This document shows, piece by piece, positions 1-30,505 of a stretch of DNA of 32,000 bases (positions are counted from its first letter, which is position 1; each line of letters opens with the position of its first letter). This DNA is from Candidatus Saccharimonadota bacterium (GTDB lineage: Bacteria > Patescibacteriota > Saccharimonadia > Saccharimonadales > UBA4665). Location: NCBI GenBank assembly GCA_016699955.1, contig CP064993.1, positions 450,001 to 482,000 of the forward strand, in the 5' to 3' direction. A program made the position numbers and the translations under genes. The notes beneath the pieces were generated by a model. The model saw only the letters and a list, made by a program, of their open reading frames with translations. It did not search any database and was not told the DNA's origin.

Positions 1-2
1 GT

Positions 3-604: not shown

Positions 605-774
605 TAGCATACATTATGTAACTGCTCACACCCTCCTGGTATCTGTTAAGTAATTACACAAGTGTAAAATCGCATAAATGCTAACAGATAAGGCAGTTTA
701 GCGTAGGCAAGTTGTTGACCAATTATCACCTCTGTTTTTGAGGCAGTGAGCAATTACTACATCTTGAATTCGAC

Positions 775-2063: not shown

Positions 2064-2160
2064 GCATTATTCATTTACATACTACGTATAGAGTGGTATA
2101 AATATCATTAGGTAAACAACGTAACGATCTTGCTGCGTTAAAAACTTTAGGGGAGATTTT

Positions 2161-3864: not shown

Positions 3865-3944
3865 GCTATAAGCCTCGGTTTGAAAATACACTAGCGTACA
3901 TCGCTGACGATAAAAGGCCATCGAATTCGTCCTGCTAAGACTTT

Positions 3945-4359: not shown

Positions 4360-4408
4360 GTAGTGAGCTTAGTGTTTGCTGAGACATTAACTACCGAACC
4401 GCAGCTTG

Positions 4409-4478
4409 GTGTAAAACCATTGTAAGCGCCAACAGGCGCTAGCGAACGAGAGCGAAGCCTAAAGGGGCGGGTTATATA
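4409..4478 (+). repeat. Dispersed intergenic repeat, copy D
   Basis: gtgtaaaaccattgtaagcgcc...agcgaacgagagcgaagcctaaaggggcgggttatata shares three modules with the other copies: the 5' module (GTGTAA..ACC..TGT.AGCG), the central GAGCGA block and the GGGTTAT terminus. These match copies at 25501-25587, 21152-21240 and 8958-9066 (reverse). Confidence 0.6.
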
Positions 4479-4663
4479 AGCAGCGAACTCCTGGCCGGAC
4501 ATGTTACTAATAGCAAAGGATAGAATCATCTTAGTCCACACCAAGAACAAGGGCTGAAACAAATAATAGTTTTTGATATGTATACATCCCTATGTAAGCA
4601 AAAAATCAGAGTAACTTAGTTGATAATACGACAACAGTCTGGCATATTACATATATAATTATT

Positions 4664-5773
4664 ATGAACAAACCGATTCACACTGAACGACTCATCGCAC
4701 CGCCCGAGTCATCCTTACGGGCGGGGCTAGCTGATTTTTTTAAGTACTTAGGAGCATTCGTTGTTAAAGGGGCTGTCACAGTTAACGCGGTAAACCTGGC
4801 GCTAACTGGGTCTGTTGAAGGCATGTTGCTTGCCGACCAAGAGCTTGTGCTATTACATCATGACTGCCCTAGCCCCTCAGCAGCAGCAATTCAGGAGGTG
4901 GAGGGTTTATTCCCACCGTCAAAAAGTATACGGCCGTTTCGTAGTGCTGACAGTTATGGCCTTCATTATGCAAGCCCTGAGCTAAGACAGATGGCTTCGG
5001 ATTTACGCAAGGCTGCCGCCGATCCAACTGTTTCATTTGAAGATTTTGAGCATCTCGCTCAAGCGATTGATAAAGCATATGGCATCGTGCTTACTGTGCC
5101 CCGCGATGAATCATTCAGAGATTTGTATAAAGCTGTTAATCTAGCCGATGAAGAACAGCGTAAAGCTATCAAAACAGCTATTGTAAATCATGCCGATGGG
5201 CTTGTTGGGAAGTCGCATGAATTTTGGGACTACGTAGGGGCTAAGGAGGTTCGTTTCGCAGTGCCTAACAACCCCAAAGCCGTTTCGTACATTGATCCTC
5301 GGCGAGCGGGTTTTATAGTACTTGGACCTAGTACAGTCGCTGGAGACTTTAGACACGAGTCGGGGCATATAGCTGACAGATACTTCTGTCAGTCCTTTGG
5401 GTCGATGTTTGCCGATCCGGCTTTTACAACGTTGAATACCCAAGGTTATGATGAGGCATCTGAGACCGGTGGTTCAACAATTAGCCCAGGTAAAGTTTAT
5501 ATTGTAAAAGATAACTCGCCCATTTTTAATATACAAGATGTTCGACCGAATACAGTTAGTGTATACGCCAGCAAAAATGTTGTTGAAGACAAGGCAGAGA
5601 CGTTTTCCGCCGTTACTAGCTCCGCAGACTGGATGTCGTTTGTGCTACAGCAAGGCGGGCCTACCCTACGGCATAAAGGTGTAAATATTTTCGCTAAGAT
5701 GTACGAGCATAACCCACAGCTAGTTAAGTATTATGCCAATCAGCTTGCAAGATTGAATGCTGGAGCTGACTGA
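4664..5773 (+). CDS. Hypothetical zincin-like metallopeptidase (HExxH)
   Basis: 369-aa ORF. HESGH (in FRHESGHIADRY) plus a downstream VVEDKAETFSAV, resembling the E-D-x-A-E-x-F third-ligand helix of several zincin families. No signal peptide recognised. Confidence 0.6.
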   Translation: MNKPIHTERLIAPPESSLRAGLADFFKYLGAFVVKGAVTVNAVNLALTGSVEGMLLADQELVLLHHDCPSPSAAAIQEVEGLFPPSKSIRPFRSADSYGLHYASPELRQMASDLRKAAADPTVSFEDFEHLAQAIDKAYGIVLTVPRDESFRDLYKAVNLADEEQRKAIKTAIVNHADGLVGKSHEFWDYVGAKEVRFAVPNNPKAVSYIDPRRAGFIVLGPSTVAGDFRHESGHIADRYFCQSFGSMFADPAFTTLNTQGYDEASETGGSTISPGKVYIVKDNSPIFNIQDVRPNTVSVYASKNVVEDKAETFSAVTSSADWMSFVLQQGGPTLRHKGVNIFAKMYEHNPQLVKYYANQLARLNAGAD

Positions 5774-5886
5774 CAACAAAATACGACGTAAAGGTCTGTC
5801 CGCTGAATCCAAACTCGATCTCAAAAGCAAGTGGACTTCAGGTATCCGGGTAAGACTGAAGTTCCATAACGTAACGCGGTTTTGGC

Positions 5887-6225
5887 TTAGCACTCTTCGT
5901 GGTATTTGTTGCCCCAGGCGGCCATGGTCTGTAAGACTGGCACGAGGTCGTAGCCCTTGGCTGTAAGTGTGTATTCGGTGCGTGGAGGCACTTCAGCATA
6001 AGTTTTTTTTGTGACGACACCGTGAGTTTCGAGAGCCTCGAGGCGCTGGCTAAGGGTGCGTGGGTTAATTGTACCGACGGATTTTTCGAGCTCCCCAAAT
6101 CTTTTGGGTCCTGCGTAAAGGTCGCGGATGATAAGAGCGGTCCATTTTTGTCCAATAACACGCAGCGCTGAGGCGATGCATCCGATCTGTGGTTCTAGGT
6201 TGGTAAATGTAGGTTGACTAGTCAT
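5887..6225 (-). CDS. HxlR-family winged-helix transcriptional regulator
   Basis: CIASALRVIGQKWTALIIRDLYAGPKRFGELEKSV..INPRTLSQRLEALETHGVV...YTLTAKG is the canonical HxlR pattern. I prefer ATG 6225, which has GGAG 6 nt upstream, over the TTG at 6237 that opens the ORF track entry. Confidence 0.9.
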   Translation of the reverse strand: MTSQPTFTNLEPQIGCIASALRVIGQKWTALIIRDLYAGPKRFGELEKSVGTINPRTLSQRLEALETHGVVTKKTYAEVPPRTEYTLTAKGYDLVPVLQTMAAWGNKYHEEC

Positions 6226-6298
6226 TGTTTGCTCCAAAAAGGTTTCTTGGCTTTGCTCGAGATGACATTTCTGTGAATCGTAGAAATGGCACTTTACT

Positions 6299-6348
6299 TT
6301 GTATAGTTATAAACGTATACTTACTATATAAAGTATATCATAAGGAGG
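6299..6348 (+). promoter_or_regulatory. Candidate promoter, operator and SD for the FMN-reductase gene in the divergent hxlR spacer
   Basis: TTGTAT (6299-6304), a 17-nt spacer, then TACTAT (6322-6327). Inverted hexamers tatagt (6302-6307) and actata (6323-6328) flank a gtatac palindrome (6315-6320). SD AAGGAGG at 6342-6348. Confidence 0.35.
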
Positions 6349-6356
6349 AGTAAAAG

Positions 6357-6926
6357 ATGAAATTAGGCATAATCGTTGGTTCAGTACGTCAGGGGCGTGT
6401 CAGTGGGAACATGGCAACTTGGGTTGCGAATGCAGCAAAGGCATATGAAGGTGTAGACGTAGAGGTTATCGATCTTCTTGACTACAAACTGCCAATGTTT
6501 GACGAGGCAGTTTCACCTCAGTACAATCCTGACCGCAAGCCGGAGGGAGAGGCTAAGAAGTGGCTCGATGTTCTCGCACGTCAGGAGGCTTATGTTATTG
6601 TAACTCCAGAGTATAACCGTTCAATTTCTGGTGCCTTAAAAAATGCTCTGGACTATGTGGCGTACGAAATGGCAAAGAAACCAGTCGCCTTGGCTTCACA
6701 TGGTTCAACCGAAGGAGCACAAGCAGTGGCCCAGCTCCGGGGTATTTTAGCCGGCGTATTAGCCGTGGCAACTCCCGTATTTGTTGGCTTACCGTACATG
6801 GATGCTCAGAATATGAAAGAAGACGGTACTTTTGAGGATGCTGGTAGCTACCGTGCCGGTCAGCTGAAGGCCGCTCTTGATGATGTAGTGTGGTATGGGA
6901 ATGCACTCGCCGCTGCACGTAAATAA
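6357..6926 (+). CDS. NAD(P)H-dependent FMN reductase family oxidoreductase
   Basis: MKLGIIVGSVRQGR...YVIVTPEYNRSISGALKNALDY is the FMN_red signature. Strong SD. Divergent from an HxlR regulator, a common pairing. Confidence 0.88.
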   Translation: MKLGIIVGSVRQGRVSGNMATWVANAAKAYEGVDVEVIDLLDYKLPMFDEAVSPQYNPDRKPEGEAKKWLDVLARQEAYVIVTPEYNRSISGALKNALDYVAYEMAKKPVALASHGSTEGAQAVAQLRGILAGVLAVATPVFVGLPYMDAQNMKEDGTFEDAGSYRAGQLKAALDDVVWYGNALAAARK

Positions 6927-6940
6927 ACTTGACTAAGAAA

Positions 6941-7003
6941 AGAACCTCCGACCGCTGTCTTTTTCCTGGACGACCCTGAAGACAGCTAGGGTTCTTTCGT
7001 TAT
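6941..7003 (+). terminator. Possible intrinsic terminator or hairpin after the FMN-reductase gene
   Basis: agaacc (6941-6946) pairs with ggttct (6989-6994), and gctgtc (6954-6959) pairs with gacagc (6981-6986). A T-rich tail ttcgtt follows. The stem is imperfect with a large loop. Confidence 0.3.
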
Positions 7004-7028
7004 TCGAGGTTATATCCCGTTCTATCTC

Positions 7029-7057
7029 TTAACTCTTATATCATAACTCTGTATACT
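7029..7057 (+). promoter_or_regulatory. Predicted promoter of orn
   Basis: TTAACT (7029-7034), a 17-nt spacer, then TATACT (7052-7057). Only 10 nt separate it from ATG 7068, and there is no SD. Confidence 0.5.
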
Positions 7058-7067
7058 CAGAAGTAAT

Positions 7068-7643
7068 ATGAGTGAGATTGACAAAAAAGTACTGCCGACT
7101 CGACTGTTGTGGGTAGATCTAGAAATGACTGGGCTCGATGCGTCGCAAGATGTCATTCTCGAGGTAGCCGCGGAGGTGACAGATTTTGAGCTCAATACGC
7201 TTGAGACGTATGAGGCAATAGTGGCGCAGCCAGCTGAGATTGTTGTTGCTCGGATGCAAAAAAACTCGTGGTGGCGGGGGTATCCCGAAAACCGTGATGA
7301 ATTTATCCGGAAAACGAGCGATGAAAAAACAGCAAAACCAAGTTATATCATCGAGCAAGAGCTGGTGGCGCTCATAGAGCAACATTTTGGCGCCGAACCT
7401 GCCGTTCTCGCAGGCAATAGCATATATAACGACCGCAAATTCATTGCGCGGTACTGGCCGAAACTTGATTTGAAACTGCACTACCGTATGCTCGACGTGA
7501 GTGCCTGGAAAGTGTTCATGCAGGGACGGTTTGGCGTAAACTACGAGAAAGCAGACGTGCATCGTGCTCAAGAGGATATACAGGCATCTATTGCTGAGCT
7601 CCAAAACTACCTCGAGTGGTTCGATAAGCGGCAGATATTTTGA
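7068..7643 (+). CDS. orn: Oligoribonuclease (DEDDh 3'-5' exoribonuclease)
   Basis: LLWVDLEMTGLD, GNSIYNDRKFI, HYRMLDVS and HRAQEDIQASIAEL align with the Orn motifs Exo I-III. Confidence 0.92.
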   Translation: MSEIDKKVLPTRLLWVDLEMTGLDASQDVILEVAAEVTDFELNTLETYEAIVAQPAEIVVARMQKNSWWRGYPENRDEFIRKTSDEKTAKPSYIIEQELVALIEQHFGAEPAVLAGNSIYNDRKFIARYWPKLDLKLHYRMLDVSAWKVFMQGRFGVNYEKADVHRAQEDIQASIAELQNYLEWFDKRQIF

Positions 7644-8314
7644 GTCGTGAGCCAAGCATTAAAGCAGTCGTTTTTGACCTCGACGGGACGCTGCTAAATA
7701 CGTCGGAGCACGTTTTGCAGGCCTTTGAACATGTCATGCGCGAACATGGTGAGACACAGGAGCGTCAGGCCATCATCGAGGCAATTGGACCACCGCTGCT
7801 TGAGTGTTACCAGCAGCTTCTGCCGAGCCATGATCCAGAAAAGTTGGCTCATCGTCATCATGAACTCCAACAGTCCAAAGAATTTCTTGCACTGGTAGAA
7901 GAATACGTGGGTATGCGGCAAACGCTGGCAGTGCTTCGCGATGCAGGCATAAAAACGGCTGTTTTTACGAACCGTTGGCGCAGGGGAGTTAATTTGTTGT
8001 TTCAGGAGCTCGGGCTAGGGCCGGAGTTCGACATTGTCATTTCACCGGATGAGCTGAAATGCGGCAAACCTCACCCCGAGGGCTTGTTGCTGATTGCTTC
8101 GGAGCTCAGTATTCCGCCTCATGCTTTGGCAATGGTCGGGGATCTACCGGTCGATATAAAAGTAGGCAAGAATGCTGGGGCGGGGATAACGATCGGTATA
8201 ACGCACGGCTTTGGTTCGCGAGAAGAGCTTGAAGCAGCCGGGGCAGATTATATCGTTGATTCACTGGCGGAGCTGGGTAAGCTAATCGAAAGGCTCAATG
8301 ATGGCAAGCGTTAA
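7640..8314 (+). CDS. HAD-family hydrolase (phosphoglycolate phosphatase-like)
   Basis: VVFDLDGTLLNT (motif I), FTNR (motif II), KPHPEGL and VGDLPVDIKVGKNAG (motifs III/IV). The TTG start overlaps the orn stop. Confidence 0.85.
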   Translation: MSREPSIKAVVFDLDGTLLNTSEHVLQAFEHVMREHGETQERQAIIEAIGPPLLECYQQLLPSHDPEKLAHRHHELQQSKEFLALVEEYVGMRQTLAVLRDAGIKTAVFTNRWRRGVNLLFQELGLGPEFDIVISPDELKCGKPHPEGLLLIASELSIPPHALAMVGDLPVDIKVGKNAGAGITIGITHGFGSREELEAAGADYIVDSLAELGKLIERLNDGKR

Positions 8315-8942
8315 AGCGATACTGTTTGACTTAGATGGGACGCTCCGGGATACCAAAGATATCATCATTGAGGGGTATATGCATGCTGTCGAGAGGCACA
8401 GTGGATACCGGCCTTCACTGGAAGAACTGCAACCGTATATTCACCACCATACAGAGGTACACAGAGGTCTTTCGTCGGAAGTTGACTATGGCGACTGGCT
8501 TGAGACGTACCGGTTAAAAATTGAGGGTGCCTGGAGGGACTCGCCGTTCTTTGAACATGCCGAGGCGGTGTTAGAAGAGCTAAAAATGGCAGGATATCGG
8601 CTGGCAGTCGTGACCTCAGCTGACTACGATCGAACGATTGAATACCTGAGCTACCGGAATGTTGACCAGTTTTTTGAAGTCGTCGTTGCGATGCGCGAAG
8701 GTTTTAGGCCGAAACCGGCGCCCGACATGATGGTGGAGGCGTTACGACAGCTTGGTTGTAAGCCAGGTGAATCAATTACGGTTGGCGATATGGTTACCGA
8801 TTGCCAAGCGGCCAAAGCAGCCGGTATTCCATTTGTTGGTATTACCCACGGCTTTGCCTCGCGTGAAGAACTTAGTGCAATCGGCGCGGATTACCTAGTT
8901 GATTCGTTGGCAGAAATACCCGCACTGCTCACGCAGCGCTAG
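8298..8942 (+). CDS. HAD-family hydrolase, tandem paralog
   Basis: ILFDLDGTLRDT, VVTSA, KPAPDM and VGDMVTDCQAAKAAG. The C-terminus GITHGF.SREEL...GADY.VDSLAE is shared with the upstream gene. It overlaps that gene by 17 nt. Confidence 0.85.
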   Translation: MMASVKAILFDLDGTLRDTKDIIIEGYMHAVERHSGYRPSLEELQPYIHHHTEVHRGLSSEVDYGDWLETYRLKIEGAWRDSPFFEHAEAVLEELKMAGYRLAVVTSADYDRTIEYLSYRNVDQFFEVVVAMREGFRPKPAPDMMVEALRQLGCKPGESITVGDMVTDCQAAKAAGIPFVGITHGFASREELSAIGADYLVDSLAEIPALLTQR

Positions 8943-8957
8943 CGCTATACTCGACTT

Positions 8958-9066
8958 ATAAAACCCGAACCCGGCGTATGCGAGCACCACTCCTTAAGGC
9001 TTCGTTCTCGCTCCCTGGATGTCTGAACGCGTGAAGAGTGGTGCATACTCCGGGCTGGGGTTATAC
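8958..9066. repeat. Dispersed intergenic repeat, palindromic copy C (long hairpin)
   Basis: The arms aacccgaacccggcgtatgcgagcaccactc (8962-8992) and gagtggtgcatactccgggctggggtt (9036-9062) are reverse complements, with about 24 paired positions and a 3-nt bulge. Read on the minus strand, it aligns with the copies at 25501-25587 and 21152-21240 (GAGCGAG...TACGCCGGGTTCGGGTT). Confidence 0.7.
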
Positions 9067-9073
9067 TAAGCTT

Positions 9074-10297
9074 ATGTATAGGGCAGGAGAGCGTCCTCGT
9101 AGGTATAGAAGGCAACTTTTAATTGCGGTTGGGGCCGTGTTTGTTGGTACGGCTGGGTGCGCTGCGGCTTATCGCTTTACCCCGCAGCAACCACCACCCT
9201 GGAATGCACCACAGCTTAAATCAAAGGCGTATGTTACGACAGTCAGCTCGAACGTACTTTTTACCGGCAATTCATATTTTAGTCGCTACATAAACGATCA
9301 CGCTATGAAAAGCGAGCTCAAGTATGCCTATCCATTTTCCCGTCTCAGTGAATTCCACCGTGAGCAGTACGATGAATGGGTGACTGGGCTCGAATGCCCC
9401 ACGGTCGCTGGTTTGCAACAAACCTCGGCACAGGAAGACGCAACGCTGTCATTCAACTGTAATCCGCAGTATTTGCCTGAGCTAGTAAAGTGGTTTGGCG
9501 TTGTGACGCTGGCAAATAACCATACTGACAACCAAGGCGCTGCCGGTTTTACGGAAACAAAAATGCATTTGGAGGAAAACAACATTCAATATTTCGGCCA
9601 CCCTGACCCGCGTGAGCTCGAAGACATTTGTGAGGTCATATCGCTGCCCGCCACTGTAGCTACCAGTGACAAAAAAACGACAAAAGGCTTTTTGCCCGTT
9701 GCCATGTGCGGCTATCATGGGTTTATACGTCTACCGCTGCCTGACTCTATCGCAGTAATGAAAAAGTACAGTACATACATGCCTGTCATTGCTATGCCGC
9801 ATGCTGGTACGGAGTATCGCTCTAGCCCTGAGAGGGTGAAGGTAGACCTTTATCGTTCTATGATAGATAATGGCGCAGACATGGTGCTGGGAGACCATCC
9901 GCACGTTGTGCAGCCGAGTGAGGCATACAAAGGCCATCCCATCTTCTACTCTATGGGCAACTTTATTTTTGACCAGCAGGTCGCACCAGAAATGACTCGT
10001 TCGGCGGCCATAAATGTCAAGTTTACAGTAAACGGCGCTGATGCAGCTCAACTGAACAAGTGGCTTGCAGTTGGCAAAATGTGCAACGCATATCATGATG
10101 ATTGTCTTGCGAGAATACAGCAAGCCGGCTTACAAAAATTGCCCTATAACTTCATGTTCGATATTATCGGCAGCGATGACCTGGGCTACATAACAAAACC
10201 AGCATCTTCTGAGGTGCAAGCCGGCATATTACAGCGTCTCAACTGGGAGCAGGTAAAAACCCAGCTTCAGCCGCCATATTTTGCGAATAGCAAGTGA
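9074..10297 (+). CDS. CapA/PGA_cap-family metallophosphoesterase-like protein, membrane anchored
   Basis: N-terminal TM segment (LLIAVGAVFVGTAG). ANNHTDNQG and GDHPHVVQP...FYSMGNFIFDQ are CapA-family motifs. I prefer ATG 9074 over 9038 because 8958-9066 is a repeat element. Confidence 0.82.
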   Translation: MYRAGERPRRYRRQLLIAVGAVFVGTAGCAAAYRFTPQQPPPWNAPQLKSKAYVTTVSSNVLFTGNSYFSRYINDHAMKSELKYAYPFSRLSEFHREQYDEWVTGLECPTVAGLQQTSAQEDATLSFNCNPQYLPELVKWFGVVTLANNHTDNQGAAGFTETKMHLEENNIQYFGHPDPRELEDICEVISLPATVATSDKKTTKGFLPVAMCGYHGFIRLPLPDSIAVMKKYSTYMPVIAMPHAGTEYRSSPERVKVDLYRSMIDNGADMVLGDHPHVVQPSEAYKGHPIFYSMGNFIFDQQVAPEMTRSAAINVKFTVNGADAAQLNKWLAVGKMCNAYHDDCLARIQQAGLQKLPYNFMFDIIGSDDLGYITKPASSEVQAGILQRLNWEQVKTQLQPPYFANSK

Positions 10298-10347
10298 TTT
10301 TAGATTCTGTCTTTCATCTTATGCCAAGTATCTTCTATACTACTGCC

Positions 10348-10692
10348 ATGACACATAAGGAAGTAGAAGAGTATTTGCTTAGCATGCCTAACAGCTACCT
10401 AGACTATCCATTTGGCGAGGGAGTTGCCGTGTACAAGGTGGGCGATGCGACTAGAGCAAAAGAAGGTAAGATGTTTGCGCTGATTGCGGAGGGTAAAACT
10501 CCACTCAACTTGAGCCTGAAGTGCGATCCTCAACTCGCCGAGGTGCTGAGAGAAAAGTACGAAACGGTGTTACCGGGCTATCACTTAAACAAAAAACATT
10601 GGAACACTCTCGTTCTGTCTGGCCAACTACCCAAAGAAGAAATCCTAGGACTTATTCGCCACAGCTACCAACTCGTTACAGGGGTAAATTAA
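10348..10692 (+). CDS. MmcQ/YjbR-family protein
   Basis: YLDYPFGEGVAVYKVG..KMFALI...LNLSLKCDP...LPGYHLNKKHWNTL matches the YjbR/MmcQ pattern. ATG 10348 is preferred; the ORF is open from 10294. Confidence 0.82.
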   Translation: MTHKEVEEYLLSMPNSYLDYPFGEGVAVYKVGDATRAKEGKMFALIAEGKTPLNLSLKCDPQLAEVLREKYETVLPGYHLNKKHWNTLVLSGQLPKEEILGLIRHSYQLVTGVN

Positions 10693-10745
10693 CCTAGTAG
10701 ATGGTGAGTCTGACGTCTGGGGTTTTGCCTAAAACCGGTAAACGG

Positions 10746-11450
10746 TTATCGACTTTGCAAGGTTTTTGCTTGGTCGTAGAGTACCTTACCAGAATCAAAA
10801 CTTTGGCGGAGAAGCTCCCTGAGCTTTTGATTATTGGTGCTTTTGTAAATATCTTGAACATCGCTCAAATATGTTTCAAGCTCAGCGGTGAGCACTTTGT
10901 GTAGTGCCGCATCGAATGTACTAGTTGCCTTGGCTGCATCTAAAGTTTTATCTGTGGCAGGGTCTTGTTTGAGATTCATTTGCTTCAAATCCAAATCAGC
11001 CCCTGTATCATTTATGTACTCAGTTAGTTGGGATAGACTTGTGCTAATGCTTAGCTCTGTGGTGTAGCAAAATCCTTTTGTGTCCTCGGTAGCCGCTTGC
11101 CGTTCACAGAGCGCTGCAATGCGAACAATTTCTTGTTGCTGCTGAGCAATACCAACGAGGTTAGTAGAAGAAGTCCCTTTTGGCAGAAGCATTACAACTA
11201 CCATACCCACGACTAGTATGATGCTCGCAATAACCACTGTTATAAGCAGGAGTTTTTTTGTTTGGCTGCGACCGCTTAGACTCGATTTGTGACTTGAGCC
11301 CTGCGGGTTTACGATAAAATCGTATGGGTTTACCGCCGCGGGAGGTGTTTGATTATATGATGGTGCGATTTGCTGCGTCGACCCATAGCTGGGGTATGCC
11401 GGCGGCGCCGGCGGCGACTGCCCATAATTTGGTTCTTTTGGATTCATCAT
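10746..11450 (-). CDS. Hypothetical single-pass membrane protein with a Pro/Tyr/Gln-rich N-terminus
   Basis: 234-aa ORF. The disordered N-terminus (PPAPPAYPSYGSTQQ...NPYDFI) is followed by one TM helix (LLLITVVIASIILVVGMVVVMLL), then a helical ectodomain. No family recognised. Confidence 0.7.
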   Translation of the reverse strand: MMNPKEPNYGQSPPAPPAYPSYGSTQQIAPSYNQTPPAAVNPYDFIVNPQGSSHKSSLSGRSQTKKLLLITVVIASIILVVGMVVVMLLPKGTSSTNLVGIAQQQQEIVRIAALCERQAATEDTKGFCYTTELSISTSLSQLTEYINDTGADLDLKQMNLKQDPATDKTLDAAKATSTFDAALHKVLTAELETYLSDVQDIYKSTNNQKLRELLRQSFDSGKVLYDQAKTLQSR

Positions 11451-11528
11451 GCTTATGGTACGGGAGTTCAGAGGTAACAGTCAAGGCACAAGACGTTTGC
11501 GTGGTATTTTAATCTGTAACGCTTGCCT

Positions 11529-11556
11529 AACTACAAACTACTAACTACTATCTACT
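11529..11556 (+). repeat. Degenerate heptamer tandem array abutting the dnaG start
   Basis: aactaca (11529-35), aactact (11536-42), aactact (11543-49), atctact (11550-56). Embedded candidate promoter: TTGCCT (11523-28), 17-nt spacer, TACTAT (11546-51). Confidence 0.5.
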
Positions 11557-11562
11557 ATATAG

Positions 11563-20662: not shown

Positions 20663-20691
20663 TTGACAAACCGAGTAAATAGTACTATACT
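20663..20691 (+). promoter_or_regulatory. Near-consensus sigma-70-type promoter
   Basis: TTGACA (20663-20668), exactly 17 nt, then TATACT (20686-20691). A ~25-nt leader with AAGGAAG precedes ATG 20723. Confidence 0.65.
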
Positions 20692-20722
20692 TCTGTTAGA
20701 AATATTACATAAAAGGAAGAAT

Positions 20723-20908
20723 ATGCGACAAAATCCATTCTTTAAAATGAACCCAGAGGAACAACGAATAGCTGCGAAAGCATTCGAGGCAATGCATCCC
20801 ATATTAACTTTCGAAGAATACACAGCTTTCATGCGCCCACAAGCTAGGCGAAGATTTGGCAGCTGGCGTCCCCGCTGTAGCTGCAACGGTAACTTCAACT
20901 GTTTCTAG
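20723..20908 (+). CDS. Small hypothetical protein (61 aa) with a Cys-rich C-terminus
   Basis: ATG follows an SD-like AAGGAAG and the consensus promoter. MRQNPFFKMNPEEQRIAAKAFEAMHPILTFEEYTAFMRPQARRRFGSWRPRCSCNGNFNCF. No family recognised. Confidence 0.4.
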   Translation: MRQNPFFKMNPEEQRIAAKAFEAMHPILTFEEYTAFMRPQARRRFGSWRPRCSCNGNFNCF

Positions 20909-21151
20909 TGAGGTACTTGCGCATGGTGTAACAAATGTTACTGACGGCGCTCCCTCCGCTCCAACGCAACAGGTGCGTACAATTTCTCGTGGCACAATAC
21001 CGGCACCTAACCCAGACTTTCGCCTGGGTTAGTCCGTAAGTGAAGAGTACCAGCGTACACGTGTTTTACTTCACGCTTTGCCAAATTTTGGCACTAAACA
21101 CGGTACCCGGGCTGGTAGGGTGTTTAGGGTTTGCGTATTAATCTCAGCTCG

Positions 21152-21240
21152 GTGTAGGCGCCACTACTAGCGGTTTAGGCGTTAGGCGAGCGAGCCGGCT
21201 CCTTAATAACTGAGCGTTTACGCCTCGTTCAAGTTTTTAT
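21152..21240 (+). repeat. Dispersed intergenic repeat, copy A
   Basis: In my hand alignment with 25501-25587, 62 of about 85 columns are identical (gtgta.g..cc.ct..tagcgg..ttaggcg.tagg.gagcgagcc...ataact...ttacgcc..gttc..gtt). Confidence 0.7.
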
Positions 21241-21417
21241 GCTCATGTATTTTTTCCGTTCCAGTACATCGTCTGCGCCTCTTTACTGTGCTGCTGCGAT
21301 ACCGCTCCTTACGCTTTTTGAGGAGAAGATGCGTGATGTGAGCTTTTGGAACGCGAAATGTGTGACAGATAAAGCCTGAGCCGACATACCGACAAAAGTC
21401 GAGTATACTTGAAGTAT

Positions 21418-24063
21418 ATGAAGAAACGTTTAGCTATCATCGACGGCAAGTCTGTTTTTTACCGTGGGTACTATGCTATGCCTAATTTAAGCACTAAAGA
21501 TGGTACCCCGACTGGTGGGGTGTTTGGGTTTGCTACTATGGCGCTGGAGGTTATCAAACGGCTCAAGCCTGATTACGTGGCAGTGGCGTGGGATAAGCCC
21601 AAGACAAACATCCGCTCACGGCTCGCGATATACCCTGAGTACAAAGCTGGTCGCAAGCCAGCCCCACCCGATTTTTACGAACAAATTCCGGTGTTGCACG
21701 AACTACTCGAAGCCTTTGGCTGGCCGTTATATGAGCTAGATGATTACGAGGCAGATGACATTATGGCCACCTTGGCCGTCAAGGCAGCCAAAAAAGACAT
21801 TGAAACGCTGCTTATTACCTCAGATATGGACGCACTACAGTGTGTTGGTTCGCACACGAAGATGTTTCGGCTCAAGAAGGGTTTGAGTGACATTGAATTG
21901 TACTCGCCAGAGTCATTTACGGCAAAATACGCTATTGAACCTGAACAATTTTTGGACCTTAAATCACTAAAAGGCGACTCATCCGATAACATTCCGGGTG
22001 TGCCGGGGATAGGCGAAAAGACAGCCATACAACTACTGCAAGACTACAAAACTCTCGACGGTGTGTACGAAAACCTGTGGCAGGTTAAAGACTCGGTACG
22101 TAAAAAACTTGAGGCAGGCAAGAAGAGTGCCTACATGAGCAAAAAGTTGGCAGCGCTTTGGACGGACGCTCCGGTGCCGCTTGATTTGGAGCGCATGGAT
22201 GGGCACGTCGGGGCAGACGCCGAACGGATTTTGCATTTGTTTGAAAAGCTTGAGTTTCGCTCGCTTGCCCGGCAAGTTCCTGAGGTGCTTCATGTGGATT
22301 TGTATAATCATGAATCGGGAATTATGAATCAGGGAATTAAGGTCGGAGAAAACCGGATTATTGATACCGAGGTTAAGCTCGCCGAAGTAAAAATGCCATC
22401 TCGGGCGGAAGTAGTAGTTTATGGTCGCTCGGCAGGCGTGGCTGGCCGCGATCCTAGGGTACTGATTGTGTCGGCTGACGACAAACTTACCTACGCCTTT
22501 GACCTAAGCAAAATATCGCTTAACGCGCACCTCTTAACTCTTATCTCTGAAGCAAAGCTTGTGGGATACGACGTGAAATCCAGCTTGAAGACACTGCTTG
22601 GTATGGGTGTAACCGAGCTTCCGGAGGTGGCTCATGACGTGCTTGTAGCAGCATTTATACTAAATAGTCTGATACGCGCACAGTCTCTCACCGACTTAGC
22701 CACAGATGTGCTGGGCTACGAGGGATCTTCTTTTGAAAATTTGAGTGACGAGGAGTTACTTGGGCGGGGTGCAGAGATTGCAGCCGTCACGCGGGCAATA
22801 ATGGCACGGCAACGTTCAGAAATGGCTGAAAATACTACATTTCAAAGTCTTAACTCTACTGTAGATATGCCGGTAATTCCGGTGCTTGCGCGTATGGAAT
22901 ACACCGGAATACAGTTGGATACGCTGTATCTTGCCCAGTTTTCTGAACAAATTGAAGACACTATATCTGACCTTGAACAAGAAATTTACGGGCACGCCGA
23001 CCATGAGTTCAATATCGCCAGCCCAGCACAGCTCGCAGATATTCTGTTTGTAAAACTTGGGTTGCCAACCCAGGGTATTAAGCGAGGTAAAACTGGTTAC
23101 AGCACGGCGGCAAGCGAGCTCGATAAACTTCGTCCGGCACATCCCATCATTGACCTCATCAGCCAGTACCGCGAAGTGACAAAGCTCAAAAACACGTACG
23201 TCGATACGCTGCCTAAACTGGTTGATGGTCATGGCCGCGTACATACCACTTTCAACCTTACTATTGCTCAAACGGGACGGCTCAGCAGCACTGACCCGAA
23301 CTTACAAAACATACCAGTGCGCACCGAGCTTGGTAAACACATACGGGCTGCATTTGTAGCGGGGAAGGGCAGAAAGTTTGTCAGTGCCGACTACAGCCAG
23401 TTTGAGTTGCGGCTGGCGGCAGCCATGAGCGGAGATAGTGAGATGGTAGATATGTTTAATCGTGGGGCAGACATACATGTTCAGACCGCTGCGCAAATAT
23501 ATGGGCGTAGTCCCGAAGACGTTACAAAACAGATGCGCTCAGCGGTAAAAGCCATAAACTTTGGTGTGCTATACGGTATGAGTCCGCACGGGCTTGCGGC
23601 GGCTACGGGCATGACGTTTGGCCAGGCAAAAGTATTCATTGATGAGTACTTCAAGCTGCGGGCGCCTTTGCTTGGCTATCTCGATGGGCTCAAAGAGCAG
23701 GCACGCAAAGACGGTTATGTCGAAACACTACTTGGGCGGCGGCGGCCGATGCCGGACATCCATTCGTCTAATTTTGTTGTTCGACAGGCCGCCGAACGCG
23801 CCGCCATGAATATGCCTATACAGGGCACAGAAGCAGATCTGATGAAGCTAGCGATGGTTGCGGTGGACAAAAAATTGGCGGCGAATGTTCCGAGTGCTCA
23901 GCAACTTTTGCAAATTCACGATTCTATACTCATTGAATGCGCCCAAGAAGATGCAGAAACAGTTGCCGGGATACTCAAAGCAACTATGGAGGCCATCCGT
24001 CCAGACCTTTCGGTCAAACTTGCCGTCGATACCTCTATAGGCGACAACTGGGGCGAACTTTAG
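21418..24063 (+). CDS. polA: DNA polymerase I (5'-nuclease + vestigial 3'-5' exo + polymerase domains)
   Basis: 5' nuclease (LAIIDGKSVFYRGYYA, GDSSDNIPGVPGIGEKTA). Polymerase motif A (FVSADYSQFELRLAA), motif B (RSAVKAINFGVLYGMS) and motif C (LLQIHDSILIE). The Exo I position reads VVVYGRSAG with no D-x-E. I prefer ATG 21418; TTG 21409 opens the ORF. Confidence 0.96.
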   Translation: MKKRLAIIDGKSVFYRGYYAMPNLSTKDGTPTGGVFGFATMALEVIKRLKPDYVAVAWDKPKTNIRSRLAIYPEYKAGRKPAPPDFYEQIPVLHELLEAFGWPLYELDDYEADDIMATLAVKAAKKDIETLLITSDMDALQCVGSHTKMFRLKKGLSDIELYSPESFTAKYAIEPEQFLDLKSLKGDSSDNIPGVPGIGEKTAIQLLQDYKTLDGVYENLWQVKDSVRKKLEAGKKSAYMSKKLAALWTDAPVPLDLERMDGHVGADAERILHLFEKLEFRSLARQVPEVLHVDLYNHESGIMNQGIKVGENRIIDTEVKLAEVKMPSRAEVVVYGRSAGVAGRDPRVLIVSADDKLTYAFDLSKISLNAHLLTLISEAKLVGYDVKSSLKTLLGMGVTELPEVAHDVLVAAFILNSLIRAQSLTDLATDVLGYEGSSFENLSDEELLGRGAEIAAVTRAIMARQRSEMAENTTFQSLNSTVDMPVIPVLARMEYTGIQLDTLYLAQFSEQIEDTISDLEQEIYGHADHEFNIASPAQLADILFVKLGLPTQGIKRGKTGYSTAASELDKLRPAHPIIDLISQYREVTKLKNTYVDTLPKLVDGHGRVHTTFNLTIAQTGRLSSTDPNLQNIPVRTELGKHIRAAFVAGKGRKFVSADYSQFELRLAAAMSGDSEMVDMFNRGADIHVQTAAQIYGRSPEDVTKQMRSAVKAINFGVLYGMSPHGLAAATGMTFGQAKVFIDEYFKLRAPLLGYLDGLKEQARKDGYVETLLGRRRPMPDIHSSNFVVRQAAERAAMNMPIQGTEADLMKLAMVAVDKKLAANVPSAQQLLQIHDSILIECAQEDAETVAGILKATMEAIRPDLSVKLAVDTSIGDNWGEL

Positions 24064-24725
24064 TGAACCTGTACTCTCCTAGTGAAGAATTTGGACTTAG
24101 TTTGTTGCGGGGTACCGACTGCTCTGTTCTGAGTATAGGTATTTCCACTGCAGGTGCCTCGGAGATTAGAATGGCCCAAAAAGAAAGTGGTAGACATATT
24201 ATTGCCACAACCATTGATAAAACTGGCGCAGAACAAACGATTAAAACCATTGCTAGCGCGGGTTTTAGTGACCAAATAGAAGTAAGAGTTGAGGATATAG
24301 CAAGTAGTGAACTGCCATACGAGGCTGAAAGTTTTGATTTTGTTTACGCGCGTCTCGTTCTCCATTATCTTACAAGGCAACAACTTGAGATAGCGATAAA
24401 GAATGTCAGCCGTATTATTCGTAAAACAGGGGTGTTTTATATTGTAGTTCGTTCAACGCAGTGCATTGAAGCGAAAGACCCTAGCTCTGTTTTTGATCCA
24501 GAGACTTGCCTAACGACATATAAAACGATTGATTATCCGCATGCAACCGCTCAACGATATTTTCATTCAGATGGATCAATTTCTGACGTGCTCCAGCGAC
24601 ACGGCTTCGTGGTTCAGTCAATTAGTCATGTTTCAGAAGCGCTTGCCCCTGGTTTTGAACGCGATAAGCTTGCATCTCACAAGGACGATCTTATACAAAT
24701 TAGTGCAAGCAAGTCTGATGTTTGA
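24063..24725 (+). CDS. Class I SAM-dependent methyltransferase (small-molecule type)
   Basis: VLSIGISTAG (motif I variant), an acidic residue after beta-2 (ATTID), and FDFVYARLVLHYL with IIRKTGVFYIV (post-I to III). No DNA-methyltransferase motifs (DPPY/NPPY/PC-Q). GTG 24063 overlaps the polA stop by 1 nt. The track ORF upstream part (23937-24062) lies inside polA. Confidence 0.78.
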   Translation: MNLYSPSEEFGLSLLRGTDCSVLSIGISTAGASEIRMAQKESGRHIIATTIDKTGAEQTIKTIASAGFSDQIEVRVEDIASSELPYEAESFDFVYARLVLHYLTRQQLEIAIKNVSRIIRKTGVFYIVVRSTQCIEAKDPSSVFDPETCLTTYKTIDYPHATAQRYFHSDGSISDVLQRHGFVVQSISHVSEALAPGFERDKLASHKDDLIQISASKSDV

Positions 24726-24755
24726 TATGATGGCGAATTATAGGGTATAAGTTAT

Positions 24756-25325
24756 GTGTTTTTGGCGGCAAGGCTTATGATATTTGCTAGAGAAAGTTTG
24801 GTTCTGGGGGCGGCGGTTATGGTGCCGGTGCTGTGGTATGTGTTTCGTCGAGAGCGGTTTGGGAAGTTTTGGTCTATAAGCTTGCACGCTTCGGCGCACT
24901 CCGACAGCACTAAGGCTTTTGGCACCGGACTTCTGGCTGCGAGTGTACTACTGGCGGTGTACTTTCAAAGTTGGCTTATACCAAAGTACGATTATGGCTG
25001 GCCAATTCGTTTGGCACTCTGGGCAGCAGTAGTTTGTTTAGTGTGCCTGGCGCTTGTGCCACACTATGAGGGCAGATGGCAGGGCAGGGTGCACGCGTTC
25101 ACTTCGTGGGTAATGGTGGTGCTGATGTCGCTGACGCTGCTACTGCAAGCTGTTTATAGCTGGTATGCAGCGGAAAGCTTACTGGCCCTCGCAGGGTTTA
25201 TTGTGCAAATGACGTTACTCGCAGTTTTTTACGGTGTACAAGGGATGTATGCAAAGTTTGCACTATTTCAAGGTATGTATATATCGGTCTATTTTTTGTG
25301 CATTGGAGTCCTTGGTTATATCTAA
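24756..25325 (+). CDS. Hypothetical multi-pass membrane protein
   Basis: 189-aa ORF with about 5-6 hydrophobic helices. The start is uncertain (GTG 24756 or ATG 24777). Confidence 0.65.
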   Translation: MFLAARLMIFARESLVLGAAVMVPVLWYVFRRERFGKFWSISLHASAHSDSTKAFGTGLLAASVLLAVYFQSWLIPKYDYGWPIRLALWAAVVCLVCLALVPHYEGRWQGRVHAFTSWVMVVLMSLTLLLQAVYSWYAAESLLALAGFIVQMTLLAVFYGVQGMYAKFALFQGMYISVYFLCIGVLGYI

Positions 25326-25331
25326 CCCTAG

Positions 25332-25501
25332 CTTAAGACGTATTGCAAAATAACCCCGCAGTCCAGGCGGTGCTCTTGTTGCCTCACACTGAGTCAAAGC
25401 CTCCTCACCGTAATCCCCGGTTACGCTTCGTCTTCTTTGATCACCGTGGAACAACAATCACCACGTTCTGATTCTACGGGTTATTTTGCAGAGGTCTTAA
25501 G
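25332..25501 (+). other. 170-nt rod-like imperfect hairpin (candidate structured RNA or palindromic repeat element)
   Basis: Six nested helices: 25332-39/25494-501 (8 bp), 25345-56/25478-89 (12 bp), 25369-72/25459-62, 25376-81/25452-57, 25394-99/25435-40, 25409-13/25421-25. The outer arms end in AAAATAACCCC/GGGTTATTTT, like the termini of the repeat family. Confidence 0.55.
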
Positions 25502-25587
25502 TGTAAGTACCGCTGTTAGCGGCCTTAGGCGATAGGTGAGCGAGCCCGTCGCTTTATAACTCGGTGCTTACGCCGAGTTCGGGTTAT
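25501..25587 (+). repeat. Dispersed intergenic repeat, copy B2
   Basis: gtgtaagtaccgctgttagcggccttaggcgataggtgagcgagcccgtcgctttataactcggtgcttacgccgagttcgggttat. Local hairpins ccgct/agcgg, gagcga/tcgctt and actcgg/ccgagt. Aligns with 21152-21240, 4409-4478 and the minus strand of 8958-9066. Confidence 0.7.
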
Positions 25588-25613
25588 CTAGCCATGCTGC
25601 TAGAATGTAAGGC

Positions 25614-26513
25614 ATGAGCAGAATGTGGCAGCGGTTTGGGGATTATCGGGCGCGGAAGCAACAGAGTGGTGCTTTGACGCTTTATCAGGACGTCCAGCAA
25701 TCGCTTCGCAATGAAGTGCCAATTGCTTCGCGGCGGTGGCGTGGGCAGTCAGACGTTCAGTACTTGAAACCACTTATCGAACAAGCAAAAATTGAAGCAA
25801 ACGAAACACAAAACTCAGATGCACTCAGCGGGGCAAAGGCATGGCACTGGTTGCGAGTCCTCGTTCTGCAGGCTCCCCAAGCTGCAATGGCGCAGGGGCA
25901 GATGGACAAACACCAGCACGGCTTCTCGGCGCGCGGGAACCGTTTATTCGAGCTCATAGACTTCAACGACGCATTCGTTTCGACAGTGCTTGCCCTCGAT
26001 GAACCGCTTCTCACGGGTTTTTCAGATGAAGCCAAGAGGCTGATGGACTGGTTTTGTAAGCGAGTAGGGGTGCACGGCTTCTCGGCCGAACAATACGAAG
26101 CTATTGTGCAGGGGCTTGGACGGGAAATCGCCGTGTTTTTAGGGGTGCAAAAGGAAGGTTTCGAAGCGCATATGACCTCTCGTGCTAGTGATGCTCTCGG
26201 CATTGACATGGTTATTACCGATCCGCAGACCAAAAAAGTGGTTAATATCGACTGCAAGGCGCCCTCGGCGTATCGCCACCGTATTTATGATTTATTGCGC
26301 GAAGGGAGGCTGAGCGGGGAGGAAGTTACAGCGGCTGAGGCACTTGGCTATATTGCCGGGCTGAATGGGCGCGGTAGCGACAGGACAGAAGTTGTTTTGT
26401 GGCGAATTGAGCGAGAGAGATACGGAAACATCACTGGTTTCAGCTTTGCAGATCCGAGTGAGCTTGGCCGCACCATTCGCGCTATACTGGATACATATGG
26501 AACAACAAAATAA
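25614..26513 (+). CDS. Hypothetical protein with a C-terminal Mrr-cat-like (PD-(D/E)xK restriction-endonuclease fold) motif set
   Basis: GREIAVFLGVQKEGFEAHMTSRASDALGIDMVITDPQTKKVVNIDCKAP parallels the Mrr-cat pattern (E...GF.......D..GID...[~13]...(D/E/Q)xK). The N-terminal ~165 aa are unrecognised. TAGAAT (25601-06) lies 7 nt before the ATG. Confidence 0.55.
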   Translation: MSRMWQRFGDYRARKQQSGALTLYQDVQQSLRNEVPIASRRWRGQSDVQYLKPLIEQAKIEANETQNSDALSGAKAWHWLRVLVLQAPQAAMAQGQMDKHQHGFSARGNRLFELIDFNDAFVSTVLALDEPLLTGFSDEAKRLMDWFCKRVGVHGFSAEQYEAIVQGLGREIAVFLGVQKEGFEAHMTSRASDALGIDMVITDPQTKKVVNIDCKAPSAYRHRIYDLLREGRLSGEEVTAAEALGYIAGLNGRGSDRTEVVLWRIERERYGNITGFSFADPSELGRTIRAILDTYGTTK

Positions 26514-30449: not shown

Positions 30450-30478
30450 AGTATATAGAGTTAAGAGTTAAGAGTTAA
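30450..30478 (-). promoter_or_regulatory. Predicted minus-strand promoter built partly from the heptamer array
   Basis: On the minus strand: TTAACT (30478-30473), a 17-nt spacer, then TATACT (30455-30450), then 8 nt to ATG 30441. This is the same TTAACT-17-TATACT architecture as the orn promoter. Confidence 0.5.
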
Positions 30479-30505
30479 GAGTTAAGAGTTAAGAGTTAAG
30501 GGTTT
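30457..30505. repeat. Heptanucleotide tandem repeat (AGAGTTA)x6 plus one degenerate unit
   Basis: Six perfect AGAGTTA units at 30457-30498, followed by agggttt (30499-30505). The array ends 4 nt before the mutM ATG (30510). Confidence 0.95.

What the first reader, a model, noticed from the sequence alone, without database searches (positions are those of the whole stretch)
25332..25587. Spacer before the Mrr-like gene holds a 170-nt rod-like hairpin plus a unit of a dispersed repeat family
The 288-bp ORF-poor spacer has two parts. The first (25332-25501) can be drawn as six strictly nested helices totalling about 41 bp, with the outer 8-bp and 12-bp helices perfect. Its arm ends read AAAATAACCCC...GGGTTATTTT. 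The second (25501-25587) is an ~87-nt unit that recurs at 21152-21240 (62 of ~85 aligned columns identical by hand), at 4409-4478, and inverted at 8958-9066. Shared modules are a 5' GTGTAA..ACC..TGT.AGCG, a central GAGCGAG and a 3' GGTGC..TACGCCG.GTTCGGGTTAT. AAAATAACCCC (25347-57) could pair either with 25478-87 or with the second GGGTTAT at 25581-87, so alternative folds are possible. Four or more copies in 32 kb, all intergenic, is a high density for a compact genome. It suggests a REP/MITE-like element or a small-RNA family.
Basis: seen in the sequence. Interest (0 to 1): 0.7.

Follow-up and report, generated by a model that had tools for sequence, protein, structure and literature searches.

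The report
Nested mobile hairpin repeats in Saccharibacteria
The spacer holds two small non-coding mobile DNA elements, one inserted inside the other, in a tiny-genome Saccharibacteria (TM7) bacterium: a new local repeat family, but of an ordinary, well-known kind.

Summary
Window 25332-25501 folds into a long rod-like hairpin (z about -7 on either strand). The adjacent ~87-nt unit recurs at 21139-21240 (+), 8957-9064 (-) and, in decayed form, at 4396-4480 (+).

The unit is itself a ~100-108-nt imperfect palindrome with TAACCC...GGGTTA ends. Its first 15 nt lie left of the hairpin, at 25323-25337. The 158-160-nt hairpin, flanked by CTTAAG on both sides, is therefore inserted into the unit's left arm.

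The window is from a Candidatus Saccharibacteria MAG (locus tags IPL85_). In the closest relative retrievable (CP064992.1) the same two genes are ~22-26 nt apart. Removing 25325-25590 (one copy of the direct repeat TATCTA plus everything between the copies) gives a site that aligns without gaps to that relative.

Neither element has a significant match in about 1.6 Mb from 86 loci of other Saccharibacteria, in Rfam, or in the phage, plasmid or E. coli collections. Pattern scans of viral contigs (both elements) and of JGI metagenomes (unit only) found only chance matches.

Best reading: two nested MITE-like non-autonomous transposable elements of a lineage-specific, ERIC/Correia-like kind. A role as structured RNA is possible for the unit but not shown.

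The parts
25323..25337 (+). Left arm (5' 15 nt) of unit copy D: TAACCCTAGCTTAAG. It is separated from the rest of the unit by the hairpin insertion, and the TAA stop of gene 24756-25325 overlaps its first 3 nt.
   Evidence: nhmmer places model positions 2-26 at 25311-25336 and positions 25-128 at 25498-25598, colinear and abutting. The reconstructed unit folds at -45.4 kcal/mol, z -4.2.
25338..25495 (.). Rod-like hairpin element, 158 nt (160 nt if the GAC/GTC ends are counted). It is MITE-like, with ~24-nt terminal inverted repeats GACGTATTGCAAAATAACCC / GGGTTATTTTGCAGAGGTC. It is single-copy in the window.
   Evidence: Folds. It is absent from the three other unit copies. It shows no similarity to the units beyond ATAACCC.
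25332..25337 (.). Left copy of CTTAAG flanking the hairpin. It is a candidate target-site duplication; because the sequence is palindromic, the register (TTAA, TTAAG or CTTAAG) is ambiguous.
   Evidence: Read directly from the sequence. Removing 25338-25501 restores the unit's left arm in register with the other copies, apart from a 1-nt indel.
25496..25501 (.). Right copy of CTTAAG flanking the hairpin.
25502..25586 (+). Remainder of unit copy D: the rest of the 5' arm, the central GAGCGAG core and the 3' arm ending in GGGTTA.
25319..25324 (.). Left copy of the direct repeat TATCTA flanking unit D. This is equivalent to a 2-nt TC duplication outside the TAACCC/GGGTTA inverted repeats.
   Evidence: Deleting 25325-25590 gives GGTTATATCTAG-CCATGCTGC-TAGAAT, which aligns without gaps to L081 (TGA-GCGTACTGG-TAGAAT).
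25585..25590 (.). Right copy of the direct repeat TATCTA.
21139..21240 (+). Unit copy C, upstream of the polA promoter. Its hairpin is decaying (z -0.7).
   Evidence: CM 95.6 bits; BLAST E 6e-11 to copy D; fold.
8957..9064 (-). Unit copy B, the best-preserved palindrome: TATAACCCCAGCCCGG...CCGGGTTCGGGTTTTATA, flanked by TA/TATA. Its end plus the flank form TATACT 7 nt before the likely ATG at 9074.
   Evidence: CM 91.6 bits; fold -46.4 kcal/mol, z -5.3; sequence.
4396..4480 (+). Unit copy A, degenerate. It lacks about 24 nt of the 3' arm and sits next to an IS256-like remnant.
   Evidence: nhmmer E 1.5e-23 as a member of the model, and BLAST E 1.6e-4 to copy B. The structure model misses it.
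21007..21032 (+). Mini-hairpin TAACCCAG-N8-CTGGGTTA(G) with the same termini as the unit. It may be an internally deleted copy.
   Evidence: Fold z -4.0. The CM hit is weak (6.8 bits, E about 10), so this is suggestive only.

Best explanation
The spacer contains two nested, non-autonomous transposable elements (MITE-like).

First, a ~100-nt imperfect-palindrome unit inserted at the stop codon of gene 24756-25325, 9 nt upstream of the -10 box of gene 25614-26513. The unit has TAACCC...GGGTTA termini, and the insertion left a short flanking duplication (TC, or TATCTA counting the terminal TA). This unit belongs to an older family diverged to 62-73% identity, with four copies in this 32-kb window.

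Later, an unrelated ~160-nt rod-like element with ~24-nt near-perfect terminal inverted repeats inserted at a TTAA/CTTAAG site in the unit's left arm.

Both were presumably mobilised in trans by transposases encoded elsewhere in the genome; this step is inferred, not shown. The family is confined to this Saccharibacteria lineage as far as could be tested. Any present function is secondary: a long hairpin in 3' UTRs, or a TATA-type end that can contribute a -10 box as at 9061-9066.
For: Shown:
(1) Four related copies with significant pairwise similarity.
(2) Each full copy is an imperfect palindrome with inverted-repeat ends starting TA. 85% of cells pair, and 6 pairs carry compensatory changes, against 2.2 +/- 1.2 in shuffles and 1-2 in slid controls.
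(3) The hairpin splits the unit model colinearly and is flanked by CTTAAG on both sides.
(4) Empty site. In CP064992.1 (L081) the orthologous genes are ~22-26 nt apart, versus 288 nt here. Removing 25325-25590 aligns without gaps to L081 and keeps the conserved TAGAAT-N7-ATG. Four more relatives' loci (L097-L100) carry neither element.
(5) Decay expected of non-functional relics. Copy A lost its 3' arm, copy C folds no better than shuffles, and the rod of copy D is predicted not to form once the hairpin is present (pair probabilities near 0; the composite structure is 14.5 kcal/mol worse than the MFE).
(6) The window holds other transposable elements: an IS30-family element at 768-2059 and an IS256-like remnant at 3943-4357.
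(7) The anatomy matches the published description of bacterial MITEs: under 200 bp, terminal inverted repeats, TA at the termini, target-site duplication, and transcripts that form long stem-loops (PMC2229807).
Against: No cognate transposase or full-length parent IS with matching ends was found. The IS30 element's ends resemble the hairpin's ends only at chance level.

The hairpin is single-copy in all sequence available, so its mobility rests on one insertion context.

The duplications are short, and their register is ambiguous because TA and CTTAAG are palindromic.

Only 32 kb of the host genome could be examined. The nearest relatives are about 17% diverged in protein, so the insertions cannot be dated and no unit-only intermediate was seen.

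Compensatory changes, and somewhat better folding on one strand, could mean selection on an RNA structure.
Confidence: 0.68

Rival explanations
1. The unit is a family of functional structured RNAs. Examples would be a 3'-UTR stabiliser or terminator, an RNase III/E target, or a multi-copy small RNA. Its rod is kept by selection at the RNA level. Its MITE-like features reflect its origin, or are incidental.
For: Six base pairs show compensatory double changes among three copies (5 of 500 shuffles reach this; slid controls give 1-2). Every copy folds better on the same strand even after shuffle correction: z -4.2 vs -2.7, -0.7 vs +0.5, -5.3 vs -4.1, -2.1 vs -1.0. On the consensus structure there are 16 G-U cells against 4 A-C cells. 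The central GAGCGAG is conserved in all copies (GAACGAG in copy A). Three of four copies follow a gene in sense orientation. ERIC and Correia elements are precedents for MITEs acting on mRNA (PMC2229807, PMC2649163).
Against: Only three full sequences are available, so the statistics are weak. The G-U count is biased, because the structure was predicted on that strand. One copy is inverted relative to both neighbouring genes. No listed promoter-like site precedes any unit in its own orientation, and no terminator-like site overlaps a unit. Copy C's fold is not better than shuffles, copy A lacks an arm, and the rod of copy D is destroyed by the hairpin insertion. There is no Rfam match, no conservation in 86 loci of related genomes, and no RNA data.
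Confidence: 0.2
2. The units are site-specific recombination sites of the attC/integron-cassette type, or other protein-binding palindromes, rather than transposable elements.
For: They are imperfect palindromes of about 100 nt placed directly after ORFs. The structure is better conserved than the sequence of the stems. The polA-to-g299 interval holds different accessory genes in different relatives.
Against: The window has no integrase and no cassette array. By inspection of the sequence, only the left end of copy D fits the RYYYAAC/GTTRRRY core-site pattern, so the ends as a set do not. The gene preceding unit D is present in L081 without any unit, so gene and unit are not one cassette. One copy lies between divergent housekeeping genes, the P-type ATPase and polA.
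Confidence: 0.04
3. The features are chance similarity, or an assembly artefact: a fold-back chimera in a long-read MAG.
For: The MAG comes from long-read sequencing, an inference from the IPL85_ locus tags and the 1.21-Mb contig. The relative from the same project shows frameshifted genes.
Against: Pairwise E-values go down to 6e-11 within the window, and the three-block pattern has 0 expected hits. The hairpin arms are imperfect, with bulges and mismatches, unlike an artefactual perfect fold-back. The insertion boundaries are clean, with duplications.
Confidence: 0.03

Closest known systems
ERIC / IRU (enterobacterial repetitive intergenic consensus, 127 bp)
   Same: It is an imperfect palindrome of about 100-127 nt that is strictly intergenic. 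It has TA at the termini and short duplications. It occurs in either orientation, is co-transcribed with neighbours as a long stem-loop, and some copies carry internal insertions (PMC2229807).
   Different: There is no sequence similarity: no BLAST hit in 5,426 E. coli genomes. The phylum is different (Saccharibacteria). The terminal motif TAACCC and the core GAGCGAG are unique. No effect on mRNA has been tested here.
Correia / NEMIS elements of Neisseria (CREE)
   Same: It is a MITE with terminal inverted repeats beginning TATA and a TA duplication. Its ends can create -10 boxes next to genes, and its transcripts form RNase III-sensitive hairpins (PMC2649163, PMC2229807). Copy B's end forms TATACT 7 nt before an ATG.
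   Different: There is no sequence relationship, though this was judged by eye against remembered Correia ends, not by a search. No IHF site was identified. Copy number is unknown, and promoter creation is inferred from one junction only.
YPAL / RU-2 of Yersinia (168 bp)
   Same: For the hairpin, the size is similar (about 160-170 bp) and the fold is a long stem-loop. YPAL insertions are reported at or next to regions of dyad symmetry (PMC2229807). Here the target is another palindromic element.
   Different: YPAL has internal rather than terminal inverted repeats and duplications of 3-26 bp. The hairpin has terminal inverted repeats and a 4-6-bp palindromic flank. No sequence comparison with YPAL was possible.
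REP/BIME elements mobilised by RAYT transposases
   Same: These are dispersed extragenic palindromes in compact intergenic regions.
   Different: REPs are 20-40 nt, lack TIR-plus-duplication anatomy and come with a RAYT gene. Units here are about 100 nt with inverted-repeat ends and flanking duplications, and no Y1-transposase domain was found among the ORFs scanned.

Membership tests
Bacterial MITE (criteria as in PMC2229807) | Short (under about 200-300 bp), non-coding, several dispersed copies | tested here: met
   The unit has four copies of 85-108 nt in 32 kb. The hairpin is 158-160 nt but has only one copy in the window.
Bacterial MITE (criteria as in PMC2229807) | Terminal inverted repeats | tested here: met
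   Unit: TATAACCCCAGCCCGG vs the reverse complement TATAAAACCCGAACCCGG in copy B, and TAACCC/GGGTTA in copy D. Hairpin: about 24 nt with 2-3 mismatches.
Bacterial MITE (criteria as in PMC2229807) | Target-site duplication and an empty site in a relative | tested here: met
   TATCTA (or TC) flanks unit D, TA(TA) flanks copy B and CTTAAG flanks the hairpin. The reconstructed empty site aligns without gaps to L081, and four further relatives' loci lack both elements. The register of the duplications is ambiguous.
Bacterial MITE (criteria as in PMC2229807) | Cognate autonomous IS or transposase with matching ends | not testable with these tools
   The host genome outside the window could not be retrieved. 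The IS30-family and IS256-like elements in the window do not share ends with either element above chance.
ERIC / other E. coli intergenic repeats | Sequence similarity to the family consensus | tested here: not met
   Copy B gives no blastn hit in 28 Gb of E. coli genomes at E <= 0.01.
Any Rfam RNA family | Covariance-model match | tested here: not met
   There were 0 hits at gathering thresholds. At E <= 5 there were only two chance snoRNA hits, both elsewhere in the window.
Integron attC site | R''/R' core sites (RYYYAAC...GTTRRRY), cassette arrays, a nearby integrase | tested here: not met
   Only the left end of copy D fits the core-site pattern (inspection). The window has no integrase and no array. 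The upstream gene exists without the unit in L081.
Independent small-RNA gene | Own promoter and terminator, discrete transcript, conservation in relatives | tested here: inconclusive
   No listed promoter-like site precedes any unit in its own orientation, and no terminator-like site overlaps a unit. There are no homologues in 86 loci of related genomes. Transcripts cannot be tested with these tools.

The most novel reading that the evidence does not exclude
The ~100-nt unit is a MITE-derived structured RNA module that a streamlined CPR bacterium has domesticated. It would act, for example, as a 3'-UTR hairpin that terminates or stabilises transcripts, or as an RNase target. Its rod would be kept by compensatory evolution, and one strand would be the functional one.
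Probability: 0.2. Interest if true: 0.5.

Novelty: new member of a known kind. Interest (0 to 1): 0.3.

Why it matters
Saccharibacteria and other CPR bacteria have ~1-Mb streamlined genomes with very short spacers. A lineage-specific burst of small palindromic mobile elements, nested in one another and sitting beside promoters of leaderless genes, shows that such genomes still host active non-autonomous transposons.

The family gives strain-level markers. It also flags insertion-tolerant sites, which may help the genetic manipulation of Saccharibacteria now becoming possible. It does not by itself open a new kind of mechanism.

Tried and rejected
- Rfam at gathering thresholds and at E <= 5 gave nothing relevant. 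There are no tRNA or tmRNA genes.
- Retrieval of the host genome by exact protein look-up failed three times. The genome-contig scan returned only other species; the best polA match is 87% amino-acid identity.
- Unit HMM and covariance-model searches of 81 Saccharibacteria loci (1.53 Mb), plus an HMM search of 5 further loci, gave no hit.
- Pattern scans of viral contigs gave 9 chance hits for the unit core and 0 for the hairpin ends.
- Two scans of JGI metagenome contigs, both with unit patterns, gave 0 hits, then 6 chance hits in contigs of 64-72% GC. The hairpin was not scanned there.
- blastn against plasmids, phages and E. coli genomes gave no match.
- Hairpin ends vs IS30 element ends: I noticed a resemblance (GACCTC..TGCAA.A.AACC), but its score is below random background in the window, so I rejected it.
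- Hairpin vs unit: no homology beyond the shared ATAACCC.
- Promoter and terminator scans: counts near shuffle expectation around copies 21139 and 25323; none of the listed sites supports a unit as its own gene.
- An empty site for copy C could not be reconstructed, because that spacer is not alignable to relatives.
- Considered and dismissed without a dedicated test: CRISPR (no array); DGR template/variable repeats (no reverse transcriptase, differences not adenine-specific, indels present); a DNA-uptake sequence (ATAACCC is enriched, 8 vs 2.7 expected, but mainly inside these elements).

Full report
**1. What is in the sequence**

The spacer between ORF 24756-25325 and ORF 25614-26513 is 288 nt.

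Window 25332-25501 folds into a single nested rod. As RNA the + strand gives -59.2 kcal/mol (z -7.2) and the - strand -71.5 (z -6.9). As DNA it gives z -6.2. No shuffle out of 200 did as well in any of these tests. The outer helices are CTTAAGAC/GTCTTAAG (8 bp) and TTGCAAAATAACCC/GGGTTATTTTGCAG (14 bp, one of them G-U).

The ~87-nt unit that follows is significantly similar to three other places in the window:
- 21152-21235: 73% identity over 85 columns, E 6e-11.
- 8957-9048, inverted: 62% over 92, E 1e-3.
- 4397-4470: linked through the 8958 copy, 67% over 76, E 1.6e-4.

A three-block pattern hits exactly three copies, with none expected by chance.

**2. Corrected anatomy**

An HMM built from the copies matches the 25501 copy in two colinear pieces. 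Model positions 2-26 map to 25311-25336 and positions 25-128 to 25498-25598. The unit's left end therefore lies on the other side of the hairpin.

Joining 25323-25337 to 25502-25586 gives a 100-nt sequence that aligns end to end with the other copies, apart from one indel. It folds as one rod (-45.4 kcal/mol, z -4.2).

The unit is thus itself an imperfect palindrome of 100-108 nt. It has TAACCC...GGGTTA ends, inverted-repeat arms (for example TATAACCCCAGCCCGGAGTATGC / GCATACGCCGGGTTCGGGTTTTATA in copy B) and a conserved central GAGCGAG.

The hairpin (25338-25495) is flanked on both sides by CTTAAG, and the other three copies lack it. It shows no similarity to the unit beyond the heptamer ATAACCC. 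The simplest reading is that it inserted into the unit's left arm with a 4-6-bp duplication. The register is ambiguous because CTTAAG is a palindrome.

**3. Organism and comparison with relatives**

PolA (21418-24063) is closest to Candidatus Saccharibacteria MAGs; the best match is 87% amino-acid identity. The downstream 299-aa protein is identical to IPL85_02455 of a Saccharibacteria MAG with a 1.21-Mb contig. That genome could not be retrieved.

The closest retrievable relative is CP064992.1 (L081), whose ortholog of the 299-aa protein is 83% identical. It has the same two genes ~22-26 nt apart.

Deleting 25325-25590, that is, one copy of the direct repeat TATCTA plus everything between the two copies, gives:

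...GGTTATATCTAG CCATGCTGC TAGAAT GTAAGGC ATG

This aligns without gaps to L081:

...GGCTATATGTGA GCGTACTGG TAGAAT ATAGGCA ATG

The deletion also restores a stop codon. The -10-like TAGAAT/TACAAT box 7-8 nt before the ATG is shared by most relatives, which suggests leaderless mRNAs.

Four further relatives' loci (L097-L100) lack both elements. So unit plus hairpin is a discrete 266-nt insertion relative to the ancestral arrangement, made in two steps.

**4. Distribution**

Neither element has a significant match in any of the following:
- 1.53 Mb from 81 other Saccharibacteria loci (unit: nhmmer and covariance model; hairpin: blastn).
- Five more orthologous loci.
- Plasmids, phages and E. coli genomes, searched with the spacer or with copy B.

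Pattern scans of IMG/VR viral contigs gave only chance matches for both elements. The two scans of JGI metagenome contigs used unit patterns only, and also gave only chance matches.

The motif TAACCC-N(5-200)-GGGTTA occurs 3 times in this 32-kb window, against 4 times in 1.53 Mb of relatives. The family appears specific to this lineage. Its genome-wide copy number is unknown.

**5. Structure, conservation and decay**

On the three full copies the consensus rod has 35 pairs, and 85% of cells are paired. Six pairs carry changes on both sides, against 2.2 +/- 1.2 in shuffles (5 of 500 reach six) and 1-2 in slid controls.

Each copy folds somewhat better on the same strand after shuffle correction, and G-U cells outnumber A-C cells 16 to 4. 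The latter count is biased by how the structure was derived.

Against strong constraint:
- Copy C folds no better than shuffles (z -0.7).
- Copy A lacks about 24 nt of the 3' arm and is missed by the structure model.
- In copy D the hairpin insertion is predicted to abolish the unit's main helices. Their pair probabilities are near 0, and the composite structure is 14.5 kcal/mol worse than the MFE.

Promoter-like sites are not enriched over shuffles around copies C and D (7 vs 5.7 +/- 2.4). In the stretch holding copies A and B there are more than expected (14 vs 6.4 +/- 2.9), but none lies beside a unit. No listed promoter-like site precedes a unit in its own orientation, and no terminator-like site overlaps one. 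Three of four copies are in sense orientation after a gene; one is inverted.

**6. Mechanism**

Most likely (about 0.68), both elements are MITE-like non-autonomous transposons.

Shown: multi-copy (unit only), terminal inverted repeats starting with TA, flanking duplications, an empty site in relatives, nesting, and decay of some copies.

Inferred: mobilisation in trans by a transposase elsewhere in the genome. The two IS-type elements in the window are an IS30-family element (768-2059, split transposase) and a 415-nt IS256/IS1249-like remnant with 34-nt inverted repeats (3943-4357). Neither shares ends with the unit or the hairpin above chance.

Secondary effects are plausible but untested. 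As long hairpins right after stop codons, the units may behave as 3'-UTR structures. At copy B the element's end plus the flank form TATACT 7 nt before the likely ATG at 9074.

The main rival (about 0.2, and not exclusive) is that the unit is a domesticated structured RNA. attC-like sites and artefacts are unlikely.

**7. Comparison with known families**

The anatomy fits the published description of bacterial MITEs: under 200 bp, terminal inverted repeats, 5'-TA-3' termini, target-site duplication, and long stem-loop transcripts (PMC2229807).

The unit most resembles ERIC/IRU in size and whole-length palindromy, and Correia elements in its TATA-type ends that can create -10 boxes (PMC2649163). 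The hairpin most resembles YPAL-type 168-bp elements, which insert at or near dyad symmetries (PMC2229807).

There is no sequence membership in ERIC or in any Rfam family. A literature search found no description of MITEs in Saccharibacteria. A large MITE survey does not mention Patescibacteria.

**8. Verdict**

This is a real, lineage-specific pair of nested small mobile elements: a new member of a known kind. Interest is modest (0.3). It would rise to about 0.5 if the unit proves to be a domesticated RNA module in a CPR genome.

Noticed in passing
window 30457-30504, 11527-11557, 7023-7057: Heptamer tandem arrays lie directly upstream of gene starts. AGAGTTA x6.9 precedes the Fpg-like gene at 30510, and CTAACTA x4.4 precedes dnaG at 11563. 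Inverted TAACTCT-like matches precede the RNase_T-like gene at 7068. They may be promoter-associated or phase-variable repeats.
   Followed up: no
window 768-2059: An IS30-family element with 23-nt terminal inverted repeats. Its transposase is split into two ORFs (893-1663 and 1815-2063), either by a frameshift or by an assembly error.
   Followed up: partly
window 3943-4357: A 415-nt element bounded by 34-nt inverted repeats (88% complementary). It contains only a C-terminal fragment of an IS256/IS1249-like transposase (ORF 4063-4320). It looks like an internally deleted IS and sits immediately upstream of unit copy A.
   Followed up: partly
window 21007-21032: A perfect 9-bp hairpin, CTAACCCAG-N8-CTGGGTTAG, whose termini are the same as the unit's. 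It overlaps a stop codon. It may be an internally deleted unit copy (z -4.0; CM hit only 6.8 bits).
   Followed up: partly
The only hit is a sub-threshold match to the restriction-endonuclease-like domain PF18741 (E 0.086). It belongs to a family of 251 mostly unnamed homologues; those that carry a name are hypothetical proteins of Saccharibacteria/Patescibacteria.
   Followed up: partly
window 24063-25614; L081, L097-L100: The interval between polA and the 299-aa gene is a variable slot. Different relatives carry different accessory genes there: methyltransferase, DUF998 membrane protein, NUDIX, YafQ-like toxin, deaminase, HATPase.
   Followed up: no
window 21381-21420, 25598-25616, 9061-9076, 20663-20725: Several genes have a -10-like box (TATACT or TAGAAT) only 6-9 nt before the ATG, with no Shine-Dalgarno sequence, which suggests leaderless mRNAs. 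The small ORF at 20723-20908 instead has a near-consensus promoter (TTGACA-17-TATACT) plus an AAGGAAG ribosome-binding site.
   Followed up: no
window 1-11000: The first ~11 kb of the window has no synteny with the closest relatives' polA neighbourhoods. It carries both IS-type elements and two of the four unit copies, so it may be a variable region or island.
   Followed up: no
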